Source: Octopus sinensis
Lineage: Eukaryota
DNA: 64,000 bases
Direction of reading: 5' to 3'
Assembly: GCF_006345805.1 (NCBI RefSeq)
Contig: NC_043014.1
Location: 38,192,001-38,256,000 of the forward strand
Shown: piece by piece, positions 20,688 through 53,364 of the stretch
Layout: the number at the start of each line of letters is the position of its first letter
How positions within the stretch are numbered: the first letter of the stretch is position 1
Program-made: the position numbers and the translations under genes
Notes under the pieces: model-generated
What the model was told of the DNA's origin: nothing
Seen by the model: the letters and a program-made list of their open reading frames with translations, nothing else
The model's database searches: none

Positions 20688-21090
20688 CAAATGTGAGGAT
20701 AAAATTCTTTTCGAAAAAAAAATATTTTCTCGAAAACAATTTTATCAATGGCCAGCATATTAAAAAATACATTTAACGGTTAAATTTATATAATTCATAA
20801 ATGAGGGCAAGGGAAAAAAATTTCTAATGCCAAATATGCCGAAAAATTGGACATATTGTCCCTTAACCATATAATTTTTTCACAATACGCACGCTACTCG
20901 AATAAAGGTCGACAGAAATTTCTAAAAAATTACATTATTACCATATCGGACCGATTTCAGAGTTAGCTACTAAGAGCCCTCTCTTCGTCAGTGATACATG
21001 TGGTAAAAGAAATAAATGAGATACTTACTCATACCCATGAAAGAAGCAAACACTAAATCATGGGTACAACTAAGTACCCCAAATACATCC
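20688..21090 (-). mobile_element. Penelope-like terminal repeat fragment (family P2)
   Basis: Inverted diverged homolog at about 21400-21772 and a fragment at 43409-43612; contains a hammerhead motif. Confidence 0.65.
20939..20996 (-). ncRNA. Type I hammerhead ribozyme motif
   Basis: TATCA-CTGACGA-AGAG..CTCT-GAA-ATCGG-T-CCGAT-A-TGGTA: complete core with stems I, II and III. Confidence 0.8.
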
Positions 21091-21399
21091 AAAATATACA
21101 TGAATATATATATATATATATATATATATATATATATTTCAAATTTACAGAAAGACAAAAGACGAAAACAGCTGAAGGAACAACAAACATGTGTTGAGGT
21201 TTCGGACCAACGCTCTTCGAAAGAAAAGATTGGGAGGTAGAGATTTAAAAAATAGGGAAAAAGTAAGTAGGGAATAACGGTTGAATATAATGACATATAT
21301 ATATATATATATATAAAACAAACTGGGAGGAAAGAGACGGAACGAAGTGAGAATTCGAAAAATCGAAAATTCAAATATATATATATATATACAACTTAT

Positions 21400-21772
21400 A
21401 TGGAGTACTTAAGTGTACACATGACTTAGTGTTTACTTCTTCCATGGGTGCAAGTAAGTATTCCCTTTATTTCTTATCGTATTTATCGCTGACGACGAGA
21501 AAATTCTTATGAATTAAGTCAGAAATCGGGGCCGATTCGATAATAACGGAATTTTTTAGAAATTTCTGTCGGCTTGCTTCGAGATGCGTACTTATAGTGA
21601 TGAATTATATGGTTATTGACAATTTAAGTCTATTTTCGGCATATTTGGCATTGAAATTTTTTTTTCTTTTGCCCTTGTTTATAAGTTGTTTATAAATTTA
21701 ACCTTTAAAGGTAATTTTTTTAATATGCTGTCCATTGATAAAAATTTTTCGAAAATTTTATCCTATATTAGA
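21400..21772 (+). mobile_element. Penelope-like terminal repeat fragment (family P2), second copy
   Basis: Reverse-complement homolog of 20688-21090. Confidence 0.65.
21484..21542 (+). ncRNA. Type I hammerhead motif with damaged stem II
   Basis: TATCG-CTGACGA-CGA..TCA-GAA-ATCGG-GG-CCGAT-T-CGATA. Confidence 0.65.
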
Positions 21773-22428
21773 TGTATATATATATACATTTATGTATATA
21801 TGTCCATGCGCGCACACACACACACATATGGACATGTATGTATATTTGACGCATGCATATGTGTGTGTAATTGTGTAGGTATGTGTGAGTGTGTATGTGT
21901 GTGTGTGACATTTACGAGCACACACCTAAGATAGAAGTAAAGTGTCATATATAATTTACATTTAAAAATCTTAACCGTTTATGTCATAAGTGATTACAAT
22001 TCATATTCTGAGGTTTACCCTAACTCATAAACAGCCTCAAATTTCAGTCTGGTACGAAGGCTGTTAGACAGTAGGCATTATTTACGACCTCCATGTCACG
22101 TTGTAGGGTTACACTGTTAGACTTTACGGTGGAAGAAAGGGCTTATAATTGCTATTTTAACAACCGTTTTATTTCAGAATCACTGGGCTATCTTGAATAA
22201 GTTTATGCACATACATAGCCTATTAGGTTCAACTCGTGTTAGAAGATGAGTACAGTTTTTCTGTCTACATTGAGTCTGCAATGATGTGTGTGCGTGTGTG
22301 TGTATAAATACATACATACATACGTACATACATACGTACATACATACATACATACATACATACATACATACATACATAGATACTTGCATACATATATATA
22401 TATATATATATATATATATATATATATA

Positions 22429-22561
22429 CTTTATTTAGAAGCAGCAGAAATTCAACAAACCTGTTACTGGGAAGTTTCACGTTCCCGTTTCGTCGGACGA
22501 ACGGGAACGTGAAACTTCCCAGTAACAGGTTTTGTTAAATTTCTGCTGCTTTTAAATAAAG
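22429..22561. repeat. About 133-bp fold-back centred on a partial hammerhead-like motif
   Basis: CCTGTTACTGGGAAGTTTCACGTTCCCGTT / AACGGGAACGTGAAACTTCCCAGTAACAGG. Confidence 0.9.
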
Positions 22562-22819
22562 CATATTACTTACCCCTGGATTTGAGTACTCTTTTCCACC
22601 TTGTTTCACATTTATGTGTTCACTCGGTATATATATATATATATATATATATATATATATATATATATATATATATATTATATAGATATATATGTATATG
22701 TATGTATGTATGTATGTATGTATGTATATAATATATATAACAAATAATAATTAAAACATATGCATATCTACATAATATATGTACATACCTACATCTGTAT
22801 GTATATATACATGATATAT

Positions 22820-22990
22820 GGGTACAGGACACCAAAAAAAAAAAACGTCGAACACAATGAGAAACGAAAACATAACCATGGAAACGGACTTTTTTTAAAC
22901 AACGATATAAAACAGAGTACAAGACATGCAACACAAGGAATATTCCCCTTCTTCAGTTGCCCCTGCTTCGTCTACTCCATGTTTCGAAGA
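22820..22990 (-). mobile_element. Family P1 fragment
   Basis: Homologous to 40008-40195. Confidence 0.6.
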
Positions 22991-23121
22991 TATATATATA
23001 TATATATATATATAGATATATATATATATATATATATATAGGAGAGAGAGAGAGAGAGAGAGAGAGAGAGAGATAAATAGTAGAGAGATAGATAGATAGA
23101 TATAGATAGATAGATAGATAT

Positions 23122-50273: not shown

Positions 50274-50964
50274 TATATAGCCAGCTTATGGCACAAGTCA
50301 TTCTTAATGAGTGCATTTCTCACTCTTGATTTCATCGGATGCATTCATGATATCTTCCTTTCTCAAAGTACGTTTTAACTGTGCATGCTGTCTTTTGGCT
50401 AGCTGAAAGCTATTGAAATCTTCCTTCAGCAAAAAAAAAAAAAAAACTCGTTTCACTTCTATCAGTTGCTTTGTCTTCTCAGGATTATACATCCGGTTTC
50501 AATTTCACTAAGTTACCGGGAATACACTCCTTGTACCATTTCATTGGCTTATGTTATGGTCACTCTTCAAATTGTAGCTCCCATAAAATAACTGCATGGG
50601 CGATTTCACATCTGACATACCTACATGCATGCACACATACATATATGCTTACATACATACATACATACATACATACATACATACATACATACATGCATGC
50701 ACACATACATATATGCTTACATACATACATACATACATACAAACATGCATGCATGCATGCACACATACATACATACATACATACATACATACACATACAT
50801 ACATACATACATACATACATTACATACATACATACATACATACATACATACATACGTACATACATACATACATACATACACACATACATACATACATACA
50901 TACATACATACATACATACATACATACATACATACGTACGTACGTACGTACGTACGTGCGAACG

Positions 50965-51295
50965 TACCAATCATCATATGTGCATAAAGTTATGTAACAA
51001 CAAATTTAAACAGAAACGTAGAAATACTCGGTTTTCCGAAGAAAGAGCAAAAGAAACTGACTTGGATTCGCCAAATCCAATCTATTAGTGGCCCAGCCAA
51101 GAATTGTAAGACATTCCAGGGATTCTCCATATGAGATTCTTTTGGGTGAATAGATGCACAGACTCGGGTGTATGCACCAACAGTTCAACCAACACATCTT
51201 CACAACCACATATTTGCAAACACCAGGTACTCTCTCAACGCGAAAACGTCTTGTCGCTTTTTCACCGACAGCCTGAACACTCTTAAAAAATATAC
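50965..51295 (+). mobile_element. R4/Dong-like LINE 3' end embedded in (TACA)n
   Basis: PIIICA*SYVTTNLNRNVEILGF plus 3' UTR; inverted homolog at 53392-53760. Confidence 0.6.
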
Positions 51296-51485
51296 ATACA
51301 AACATAAATGCACACATACATACATACATACATACATACATACATACATACATACATACATACATACATACATACATACATGCATACATATATACATACA
51401 TGCATACATTCATACATACATACATACATTCATACATACATACATACATACATACATACATACATACATACATACATACATACAT

Positions 51486-51595
51486 GGTGGCTGTCCCCTC
51501 GTTATCGAGTATGGCCATTGCACGAAGCTTAATCAATGTTGTTATCGTGCAATGCCTGTGCAAGATTTGTTTTAAAGTGAGGAAAGGATGTGCAT
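51486..51595 (-). mobile_element. Truncated copy of the 14174-14733 element inside (TACA)n
   Basis: CCCCTCGTTATCGAGTATGGCCATTGCACGAAGCTTAATCAATG shared. Confidence 0.8.
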
Positions 51596-52129
51596 ACATA
51601 CATACATACATACATACACACATACATACATACATGCATACATGCATACATACATACATACATATACATACATACATACATACATACATACATACATACA
51701 TACATGCATATAAATATACATATATGCAGAAACTCACGCTCATCGCATGCCACAGAAACATAGCATCGTTTAACACGGCGTTTATGCTTAAATTGTGTTT
51801 AAATCGACATAGTTGTATGGTTAAGAAACTCGCTTTGTAGCCAAATGGTTTGAGATTCTGTTCAGTTGAGCGGCATTTGGGGCAAATGGCTTCTACTTTA
51901 GCCCGGGGTCGACTAATGCCTTGTGAGCGGATTTGATAGACAAAAACTGTATAAAAGCCTGTCGCATACGTATATACGTATATCTTTGTGTGTGTGTATG
52001 TGTGTGTGCGCGCACACACACACACACACTTTGTAAAAAAATAAATGAGATGGTTACGGTTTGAATATATTTAATTACGTACGAACCCTGCTCGATATTG
52101 ACTGACCTGGGGCTAAATAACAACCACTA

Positions 52130-52364
52130 GTACTATTGCTGCTGCTGCTACTACTACTATTACTACTACTACTATTGCTGCTGCCGCTGCTGCTGCTGCT
52201 ACTACTACTACTTCTACTACTACTACTACCACCACCACCACCACTGCCACTACTACTACTACTACTACTACTACTATTACCACCACCACTGCCACTACTA
52301 CTACTACCACCATCACCACCACCACCACATCCACCACTGCCAATACTACTACTACTACTACTAC
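52130..52364. repeat. Compound (CTA/CTG/CCA)n trinucleotide tract
   Basis: Direct reading. Confidence 0.93.
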
Positions 52365-53183
52365 AAGCGAGCCGTAGAGTATGTCACAATGCGTAAATCT
52401 CTCGACCAAAATCTCACCGAAATCATAACCCAACCAACTCAAAAAACAAGGAGGGCAAATAAATAATTGTTTGTGCACATAACAATTTTATCCTGGATTC
52501 ATATTATACCGTTAAACAAAACCAAGATGGTCATGGTTTGAATGTCTTTTGATCGTATGACTGCTCAATCAAGGGTGACCTGAAGCTAAATGACATCCTC
52601 TTAGGGGTTTGCTCTTTACTTACCTAATATACTGAGCCAGAACAAAGTAACTACGTGTTGACCTTTAAACGATACAAGCTACTTTGTCACAAGCCTCACC
52701 TTTGCCGGCAGTTTGACAGGCAGACACACAGACACTATATTGAACCTGGGTCAGCTGCGACCTATAAAATATATCTTTTAAATAATACCCATTGTTGTTT
52801 GGTTATTTCCGAGAAAAAAAAAGCGAAATTTAATAAGTTTTTTTTCTTTTTCGATGAATAGCTCATGTTATTAGATAACCGGTTCTGTCTTGTTCACTGG
52901 GAGTGTTTCACCATTTTACCAGTGCATCCGTGTAACCTAATGTGGCGGTGAGACTTGAAGAAATATAGGGTTTGCCACATCAGTTTCATAAAAAGTAGCT
53001 CGAAATTTTCAAAAAGTAGCGGGTTATATAGCAACGTGGCTCAAAAGGATATTTTTTCTAGTAAATGATATAAATATATTACGGAGATGTACTTGCATAG
53101 CGAGTGACTTGATCTGAGATCGTGTGCTGGAACGAAAACAATTGCAACGTGGAAGGGTGTTTATAAGCCATTTAAGAAACACA

Positions 53184-53364
53184 CAAAACCGTTAGATTCA
53201 CTTCAACATTTAAATTTGATTTGTCAAAATATTTCCGTCGCTTTGAGACCGCGAACTCTTTCACTGACAAAGTTTCGTGCAGCAGTGAACAGGTCGCGGT
53301 CTCAAAGCGACGAAAATATTTTGACAAATTAAATTTAAATGTTGAAGTGAATCTAACGGTTTTG
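53184..53364. repeat. About 181-bp fold-back, Penelope-like, with a hammerhead-like motif in each arm
   Basis: CAAAACCGTTAGATTCACTTCAACATTTAAATTT.. / ..AAATTTAAATGTTGAAGTGAATCTAACGGTTTTG. Confidence 0.9.
53285..53328 (+). ncRNA. Hammerhead-like motif with G3-C8 swapped core
   Basis: GTGAACA-G-GTCGC GGTCTCAAA GCGAC-GAA-AATATT-T-TGACAAA; the opposite arm shows a 7-bp stem I TTTGTCA/TGACAAA. Confidence 0.6.

What the first reader, a model, noticed from the sequence alone, without database searches (positions are those of the whole stretch)
20939..53328. Hidden layer: about seven hammerhead motifs from about six unrelated repeat families in 33 kb
Seen: motifs at 20939(-), 21484(+), 35415(+), 40495(+), 44179(+), 49024(-) and 53285(+), plus partial ones at 22460-22497 and 38490-38515. 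All are type I with tiny or palindromic stem III (ATCGG-T-CCGAT, ACTC-A-GAGT, ATGCATGTAT, AATATT, ACGT). Known: Penelope-like elements and retrozymes carry such minimal hammerheads, which cleave best as dimers. Inference: a dense and diverse non-autonomous ribozyme-bearing retroelement population, with core variants that standard CUGANGA searches would miss.
Basis: partly seen in the sequence, partly recalled or inferred. Interest (0 to 1): 0.75.

Follow-up and report, generated by a model that had tools for sequence, protein, structure and literature searches.

The report
Penelope retroelement hammerheads with variant cores
The hammerhead-shaped RNA motifs are real and sit in scattered end-pieces and short derivatives of what are likely Penelope-type jumping genes, a known arrangement; several abundant families carry altered core letters, and one was likely copied from capped, uncut RNA, but cutting itself is untested.

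Summary
All seven motifs and both partials are at the stated places. Structure scans find 2–5 hammerheads against 0–0.7 in shuffles. Each belongs to a dispersed repeat family. Most show Penelope-like (PLE) hallmarks: two 3' ends ('tail'), inverted or tandem partial copies, (TA)n flanks. One family is tied to a GIY-YIG gene; one is a ~500-nt ORF-less tandem unit. Only three window copies look intact (20939, 40496, 49024). The density is genome-wide: 1.3 per 64 kb in 400 kb sampled elsewhere, 4 here. Variant cores are family-wide: U4C in two families, G3·C8 in a family with over 3,000 arms, A6U in a young autonomous PLE. In the G3·C8 family, 75 of 80 arms run through the predicted cut site, and 12 of 14 full-length starts carry an extra G, so the template was likely capped, uncut RNA. 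PLE hammerheads, dimer use and U3-A8/U4C cores are published. I found no natural G3·C8 or A6U in the papers I could search, but Lünse 2017 was not held. This scan already noted both variants on other DNA of this genome. No cleavage or expression shown.

The parts
20684..21096 (-). Family A copy: 5'-truncated unit of a ~500-nt ORF-less tandem element, flanked by (TA)n
   Evidence: best relatives 95-98% identical; 2534 first-look candidates
20939..20996 (-). Intact type I hammerhead, core CUGACGA, stem II AGAG/CUCU, stem III AUCGG-U-CCGAU, predicted cut after AUA
21141..21315 (-).
   Evidence: (69-71% to L326 and L029), compared by eye
21397..21755 (+). Older subfamily A' copy; hammerhead 21483-21543 with compensated stem I (UUAUCG/CGAUAA) but broken stem II in this copy
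   Evidence: intact subfamily stem II seen in loose ends and in L054, L372
22417..22635 (.). Family B fold-back copy between (TA)n; axis inside the core, both arms lack stem I 5' strand; family core CCGACGA (U4C), stem II ACG-GGAA-CGU, stem III ACUC-N-GAGU
   Evidence: 1053 candidates
35415..35461 (+). Family C relic hammerhead, core CUGAAGA, stems II and III mutated
   Evidence: 4 candidates, relatives 69-72%
38465..38653 (.). Family D fold-back copy truncated inside stem II (partial hammerhead)
40411..40594 (+). Family D copy: inverted tail arm 40411-40493 plus forward arm; intact-looking hammerhead 40496-40560 with U4C core CCGAAGA and a bulged C in stem II
   Evidence: 1438 candidates
43427..43595 (+). 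3' fragment of family A/A' without hammerhead
43770..44295 (+). Family E: 5'-truncated 3' UTR of a PLE; minimal hammerhead 44179-44218 (CUGAUGA + unpaired A, GGAC/GUCC, ACGU), stem I decayed here
   Evidence: four colinear pieces to L124, which has a GIY-YIG remnant 1.1 kb upstream on the same strand
48876..49127 (-). Family F old copy; intact hammerhead 49024-49071, core CUGAAGA, family stem III AUGCAUGCAU; inverted partial piece at 49226-49296
   Evidence: 261 candidates, relatives 72-87%
53084..53363 (.). Family G fold-back: full arm with tail on - (53284-53084), short arm on +; motif 53280-53327 has the G3·C8 core GUGAACA; both arms are damaged in this copy

Best explanation
These are type I minimal hammerhead motifs in dispersed repeat families that are likely the terminal repeats (pLTRs) of Penelope-like retrotransposons and of their short non-coding derivatives, left as mostly decayed insertions. 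Shown: the motifs, their families, the two 3' ends, the inverted and tandem partial copies, the (TA)n or AT-rich flanks, a full-length RT + GIY-YIG element elsewhere in the genome with the same motif type in both terminal repeats, and family-wide core changes (U4C, G3·C8, A6U). Inferred: a PLE protein nicks AT-rich DNA and starts reverse transcription at one of two internal sites on the RNA (giving the optional tail); template switching gives the tandem and fold-back copies; the short families borrow the protein in trans. Inferred for family G: the template is a capped transcript starting 23 nt before the core and is not cut before copying. Predicted: the ribozymes are slow and need a second copy (palindromic stem III) or the protein to cut, so cleavage trims multimeric or read-through RNA rather than making the insertion template; fold-back copies would bury the motif in a long hairpin and be inactive.
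For: Scans vs shuffles. Family alignments restore stems broken in single copies and show compensated stems between subfamilies. Tail and inversion anatomy: family G has two 3' ends about 60 nt apart and an inverted piece upstream in 53 of 88 and 51 of 80 copies or arms; family A has the tandem junction upstream in 12 of 23 loci, two or more same-strand hammerheads in 4 of 23, opposite-strand ones in 4 of 23, matching the PLE anatomy in PMC8557442 (passages). Autonomous element L437: 1009-codon open frame, RVT_1 above cut-off and GIY-YIG below cut-off, hammerhead motif at both ends 4.5 kb apart; 27 of 30 GIY-YIG loci have the motif 0.36-0.94 kb downstream; same architecture as family E. Uncut template: 75 of 80 arms picked by a 27-mer downstream of the cut site extend through it, 1 starts within 2 nt of it, 4 start after it. 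Cap signature: 12 of 14 copies starting at +1 have G where the template has C (P about 1e-7); 3 of 6 in the second sample; an extra G marks capped templates in LINE-1 insertions (PMC11702581, passage). In vitro, a lizard PLE uses uncut RNA, starts internally at two sites, and its hammerhead needs the protein (PMC11167929, parts 1-2 of 4). Stem III self-dimers are more stable than the forced hairpins for A, F, D, B.
Against: No PLE protein remnant in the window (tblastn). No autonomous partner was found for A, B, C, D, F or G, so their PLE link rests on anatomy. Clade called from the CxxxxCxxC linker only; no tree built. The cap reading has a rival: the 5' boundary also looks like an intron 3' end (ACUAAC, pyrimidines, CAG), and the second sample gave only 3 of 6 G. 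Stem III dimers of G (AAUAUU, -0.2 kcal/mol) and E (ACGU, -1.7) are marginal. Within young families conservation reflects recent copying, not selection. 5'-end mapping was done for G only.
Confidence: 0.82

Rival explanations
1. Active retrozymes: the hammerheads cut tandem transcripts to unit length, the units circularise, and circles are the templates for new insertions. Best fit for family A.
For: Family A is a young (95-98%) ORF-less ~500-nt head-to-tail unit with up to four same-strand intact hammerheads in one locus; its stem III can close as a 4-bp hairpin or a strong dimer; this matches non-LTR retrozymes (PMC7229834 passages; bioRxiv 10.64898/2026.07.22.740005 part 1 and passages).
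Against: Family G copies run through the cut site, start at a fixed point upstream of the motif and carry an extra G, which a cut or circular template does not explain. Family A also has the PLE tail and inversions, and its unit is longer than the 150-450 bp quoted in PMC7229834. Not exclusive with the best explanation for family A.
Confidence: 0.3
2. The motifs no longer cut at all; they are kept as a protein-binding or folding element, or simply hitch-hike, which is why core changes can fix in successful families.
For: A6U in 26 of 30 copies of the young autonomous family; U4C in families D and B; a fold-back junction that removes the core from one arm recurs in 12 of 80 G arms; hammerhead mutants do not affect insertion in vitro (PMC11167929); Naiad PLEs thrive without canonical hammerheads (PMC8557442).
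Against: The 3:8 change in G is a double, pair-preserving swap (G3 in 100, C8 in 97 of 104 arms), a U3-A8 motif also occurs (1 copy, L404), and G12-A13-A14-A15.1/U16.1 and the stems are kept across unrelated families, which is what selection for the active fold predicts. The engineered C3G/G8C double mutant is partly active; natural U4C keeps enough activity in a viroid (PMC3088659).
Confidence: 0.25
3. The palindromic families (22460, 38490, 53285) are MITE-type DNA transposons, and their hammerhead look is a by-product of hairpin symmetry.
For: Near-perfect 150-300 bp palindromes in over a thousand candidate places each; TA flanks.
Against: Arms are unequal, only one carries the tail, the axis moves between copies, 35 of 88 G copies have no inverted piece, and single-arm copies hold a complete motif with a fixed 5' start.
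Confidence: 0.04
4. Chance matches of a short motif in AT-rich repetitive DNA.
For: The loose scan is close to background (9 vs 4.4); the 35415 copy fails all scans on its own.
Against: Full-structure scans exceed all 100 shuffles; every motif belongs to a repeat family whose other copies repair the fold.
Confidence: 0.02

Closest known systems
Minimal type I hammerheads (min-HHRs) in pLTRs of metazoan Penelope-like elements (Cervera and de la Pena 2014, PMC4209133; read parts 1-2 of 4; supplements not opened)
   Same: Type I fold, short stem I, unpaired base between positions 9 and 10.1 (families E, G), tiny or palindromic stem III, many heterogeneous families per genome, mostly solo copies, opposite-strand pairs 100-700 bp apart, one core covariant (U3-A8).
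   Different: Family-wide G3·C8, U4C and A6U cores are not in the parts read; copy 5' ends and a cap-like G are mapped here; the host is likely an octopus (recalled from repeat content, no call names it).
Neptune / Poseidon EN+ PLEs (Craig et al. 2021, PMC8557442, passages; Frangieh et al. 2024, PMC11167929, parts 1-2 of 4)
   Same: RT followed by C-terminal GIY-YIG with a Cys-rich linker (L437), partial tandems, inverted 5'-truncated copies, tail at one end, microsatellite targets, uncut RNA as template.
   Different: Tails here are 50-100 nt rather than 30-40; most window families have no identified ORF; clade not tested with a tree.
Non-LTR retrozymes of animals (Cervera and de la Pena 2020, PMC7229834, passages; Li et al. 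bioRxiv 10.64898/2026.07.22.740005, part 1 of 5 and passages)
   Same: Family A: non-coding tandem unit with one type I hammerhead per unit, derived from PLE ends.
   Different: Unit about 500 nt; circular RNA and cleavage not shown; families B, D, G are mostly solo or fold-back, not long tandems.
Natural hammerhead core variants (Perreault et al. 2011, PMC3088659, section 8 and passages); Lünse et al. 2017 dimer variants (not held; recalled and seen only as a citation in PMC6765202)
   Same: U3-A8 covariation, U4C in a viroid, A6C in a phage (slow).
   Different: G3-C8 appears only as an engineered mutant in the papers found (PMC11167929, PMC3884650); A6U not found as a natural variant. Lünse 2017 and unread supplements could hold either.

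Membership tests
Type I hammerhead ribozyme | Three helices around C3-U4-G5-A6-N7-G8-A9 and G12-A13-A14, A15.1-U16.1 pair, N17 not G | tested here: met
   Met by 20939 and 49024 in the strict scan and by family majorities of A, E, F; D and B differ by U4C, G by G3·C8
Type I hammerhead ribozyme | Watson-Crick pair between positions 3 and 8 | tested here: met
   C-G in A-F; G-C in family G, 86 of 104 arms exactly GUGAACA, none C3-G8
Type I hammerhead ribozyme | Match to Rfam hammerhead models | tested here: not met
   0 hits at gathering score; none among the 150 of 454 rows shown at E up to 5
Type I hammerhead ribozyme | Site-specific self-cleavage | not testable with these tools
   Needs in vitro assay or raw reads with ends; only contigs were served
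PLE minimal (dimeric) hammerhead | Very short or palindromic stem III favouring dimers | tested here: met
   Sequence and duplex energies; marginal for G and E
Penelope-like element (EN+) | RT plus C-terminal GIY-YIG ORF linked to the hammerhead-bearing end | tested here: inconclusive
   Met for the autonomous family L437 and by homology for family E through L124; no ORF found for A, B, C, D, F, G or in the window
Penelope-like element (EN+) | Partial tandems (pLTRs) and inverted 5'-truncated copies | tested here: met
   A; G; B, D: (samples for B and D were chosen with fold-back queries, so biased)
Penelope-like element (EN+) | Optional 3' tail from two RT start sites | tested here: met
   A about 100 nt, G about 60 nt, D about 65 nt, B about 50 nt
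Penelope-like element (EN+) | Insertion at AT-rich or (TA)n sites | tested here: met
   Flanks; seen in alignments, not tested against a background
Neptune clade | Phylogenetic placement of the RT | not tested
   Only the Cys linker motif was read
Non-LTR retrozyme | Non-coding tandem units, each with a type I hammerhead | tested here: met
   Family A only: L052 has four same-strand units, 4 of 23 loci have two or more
Non-LTR retrozyme | Unit-length circular RNA in cells | not testable with these tools
   No raw RNA reads available
MITE | Fixed, equal terminal inverted repeats around a constant interior | tested here: not met
   Unequal arms, moving axis, single-arm copies

The most novel reading that the evidence does not exclude
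This genome is a natural mutagenesis of the hammerhead core: separate, highly successful PLE families have fixed G3·C8, U4C and A6U while keeping the fold, and the G3·C8 family is a SINE-like, Pol II-capped, pLTR-only element copied from uncut RNA, some of it as a self-propagating fold-back unit. The ribozyme would act as a deliberately slow, dimer- or protein-gated timer on copy number rather than as the maker of the transposition template, and G3·C8 would be the first natural example of that core pair.
Probability: 0.35. Interest if true: 0.62.

Novelty: new variant of a known kind. Interest (0 to 1): 0.36.

Why it matters
What PLE hammerheads do is an open question: they cut poorly, and one in vitro study found cutting dispensable for insertion. 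A genome with tens of thousands of such motifs (rough extrapolation from 8 hits in 400 kb, less 1.4 background: about 45,000, with a several-fold range) in families that differ at defined core positions gives a ready panel to relate cleavage rate to copy number and template choice. It also shows that CUGANGA descriptors and Rfam undercount them. The bulk of the finding, a dense layer of PLE-derived minimal hammerheads, is already described for other animals.

Tried and rejected
Rfam: no hammerhead hit. Expression: no RNA holder listed; only contigs of runs guessed to be RNA. Laying four of them on a family A unit gave contigs over 26-29 of 29 bins and a joint going back 504 nt in 2 of 4 runs; genomic tandems give the same joint and contigs show no ends, so this is not used as evidence. 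My first guess that 43880-44100 is a decayed GIY-YIG exon was rejected: no tblastn hit, it aligns to 3' UTR of L124. A second GUGAACA-like motif at 62467 has one 74% relative that does not keep the core; not counted. Search for an ORF upstream of the long form of family G: microsatellite-rich leader of at least 600 nt, no PLE protein match within 1.5 kb in 30 of 345 loci. Pfam on five ORF fragments from flanks was blank. The window as a hot spot: weak (P about 0.04, post hoc). MITE reading rejected (see rivals). Literature searches for natural G3-C8 returned only engineered mutants or unrelated papers; 'hammerhead + Penelope-like + octopus' returned one paper, on Naiads; an Octopus vulgaris repeat annotation has no mention of ribozyme or hammerhead in its main text (PMC13282606). 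Lünse et al. 2017 was not held, and no supplements were opened; either may already list these variants.

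
Full report
Setting. The window is G000:C18:38192001-38256000 in a 2.72-Gb, microsatellite-rich animal genome. I take the host to be an octopus from recalled repeat content; no call names it. The window holds no PLE protein remnant.

Observation. A strict type I scan finds 2 (cores at 20991- and 49065-) against 0.0 in 100 block-wise dinucleotide shuffles; relaxed versions find 3-5 against 0.02-0.09. Allowing any Watson-Crick pair at positions 3:8 gives 5 against 0.67 (max 3) and, tighter, 4 against 0.15. 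A loose scan without stems I and III is near background (9 vs 4.4). Rfam gives nothing at gathering score. Three copies look intact (20939, 40496, 49024). 44179 has a weak stem I, 21483 a broken stem II, 35415 mutated stems II and III. In 53280 the + arm has lost the 5' strand of stem I and the - arm has core changes. An eighth decayed motif lies at about 21190-21226(-).

Is the window special? In 40 stretches of 10 kb taken at round coordinates on 26 large contigs, the tight scan gives 8 hits (1.28 per 64 kb); ten shuffles of that set give 0-4. Four in this window is a mild excess (P about 0.04) for a region chosen after the fact. Five of the 8 have CUGANGA, two CCGAAGA, one UUGAUAA (U3-A8). 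So the layer is genome-wide, and a plain CUGANGA search misses about a third.

Families (first-look candidates, not copy numbers). A (20939, with 21483 as a 77% subfamily): 2534, best 95-98% identical. It is an ORF-less unit of about 500 nt in head-to-tail partial tandems and inversions, ending in (TA)n at two places about 100 nt apart. Of 23 loci, 12 have the tandem junction upstream, 4 have two or more same-strand hammerheads, 4 have opposite-strand ones. Subfamilies keep stems I and II with different letters. D (40496, 38490): 1438; core CCGAAGA in 12 of 21 parsed copies out of 25, CTGAAGA in 4, which may be CpG decay. B (22460): 1053; core CCGACGA, with a CUGACGA sister in L367. G (53280): 1658. 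F (49024): 261, 72-87%, majority stem III a perfect 10-nt palindrome. E (44179): 43, old. C (35415): 4. The B, D and first G samples were drawn with fold-back queries and so overstate fold-backs.

Link to PLEs. A GIY-YIG fragment found in a flank retrieved a young, abundant family (14,438 candidates). L437 is full length: 1009 open codons, RVT_1 at 32 bits (cut-off 29.6), GIY-YIG at E 0.008 (below cut-off), a Cys-rich linker, and the same hammerhead motif in both terminal repeats. Of 30 loci, 27 have the motif 0.36-0.94 kb after the gene, followed by about 120 nt and (TA)n; 26 read CUGUUGA (A6U), one has a small deletion, 3 have none. The architecture (core, unpaired A, 4-bp stem II, ACGU, UCUU/AAGA stem I) is that of family E with a compensated stem II. 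The window's E copy aligns in four colinear pieces to L124, which has a GIY-YIG remnant 1.1 kb upstream on the same strand. So E is a truncated end of a coding PLE. For A, B, C, D, F and G no coding partner was found; their assignment rests on tail, tandem, inversion and target anatomy, which match the description in PMC8557442.

Family G in detail. A 49-nt stretch covering the whole motif occurs exactly 363 times (reversed control 0) and a 27-mer downstream of the cut site 3059 times. In arms not selected on the core, 86 of 104 read GUGAACA; G3 in 100, C8 in 97, none C3-G8. Contigs of four runs under four organism labels show no variant above 5% at the core. The swap keeps the 3:8 pair. The engineered double mutant is partly active (PMC11167929), and a G3-C8 variant is reported to do better without C17 (PMC3884650, passage, data not shown there); this family has U17. 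The unit is about 210 nt with two 3' ends 60 nt apart. Among 88 copies with an intact motif (90 fetched of 363; second arms of two fold-back pairs dropped), 84 start within the 17 nt before stem I, 3 one to three bases further up, 1 in a long leader; 14 start at the same A, and 12 of these have a G in front where the template has C. In a sample blind to the motif (80 distinct arms from 85 loci on contig C1), 75 extend through the predicted cut, 1 starts at it, 4 after it; 3 of 6 at +1 have the G; 12 share one fold-back junction, so that palindrome itself spread as a unit. A long form with a microsatellite-rich leader has 345 matches. I read this as capped, uncut RNA from an internal start (extra G as in LINE-1; Penelope has an internal promoter, PMC2377424 passages). 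The boundary also resembles an intron acceptor, as in Drosophila Penelope where the intron ends at helix I, but no shared exon sequence precedes the G. Family D copies also tend to start at AGAUG, 14-15 nt before their core (5 of 17 family D rows from the first sample).

Mechanism. Shown: motifs, families, anatomy, a coding element with the motif, fixed core variants, copies spanning the cut site. Inferred from PMC11167929: the PLE protein nicks AT-rich DNA and primes at two internal RNA sites; short families use it in trans. Predicted: slow cleavage that needs a partner copy or the protein; stem III duplexes are -7 to -14 kcal/mol for A, B, D, F against 0 to +4 for forced hairpins (A' -1.3), but only -0.2 to -1.7 for G and E. 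No cleavage, expression or circle was shown.

Comparison and verdict. Works like, and by anatomy belongs to, the minimal hammerheads of animal PLEs (PMC4209133), with family A also meeting the sequence definition of a non-LTR retrozyme. What goes beyond the papers I could search is the family-wide G3·C8 and A6U cores and the genomic footprint of a capped, uncut template. Lünse 2017 and all supplements were unseen. Earlier notes of this scan report the G3·C8 family (e1-9831856 in this genome, e1-8868148 and e1-9590224 in others) and A6U (e1-9903561); I had both from my own calls before looking. New variant of a known kind; interest 0.36.

Noticed in passing
L437 (G000:C10:29231500-29238500), L407-L436: Young, abundant autonomous Neptune-type PLE with open frames up to about 1000 codons; its hammerhead core is CUGUUGA (A6U) in 26 of 30 copies.
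   Followed up: partly
L404:287 (+): Single hammerhead with the U3-A8 core UUGAUAA and palindromic stem III in the random sample; with C-G and G-C, three of the four Watson-Crick 3:8 pairs occur in this genome sample.
   Followed up: no
L032, L139/L153; L036, L085, L145; L390; L405: Further hammerhead families in flanks and random stretches (CCGACGA + GAGC/GCUC; CUGAAGA with ACGAUUGU; long-stem II forms).
   Followed up: no
window 62460-62520 (+): GUGAACA-like motif with GAAA at the right spacing; one 74% relative that does not keep the core, so unresolved.
   Followed up: partly
L313, L331, L351 and 12 arms: One identical fold-back junction of family G recurs at many loci, so a palindromic derivative was amplified as a unit.
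   Followed up: partly
L058:1893-2600 (+): Remnant of a second PLE lineage (Cys linker and GIY-YIG, about 30% to L437) with no hammerhead found downstream by my scan.
   Followed up: no
window 16710-17347, 46600-47457, 57012-57378, 60450-60874, 813-1358: Tandem arrays of SINE-like units of 153-274 bp.
   Followed up: no
window 18158-18430, 49369-50271, 35677-36804, 58866-59927: Long inverted repeats; 18158-18430 is a 136-bp-arm palindrome with a 1-nt spacer, not examined for a ribozyme or transposon identity.
   Followed up: no
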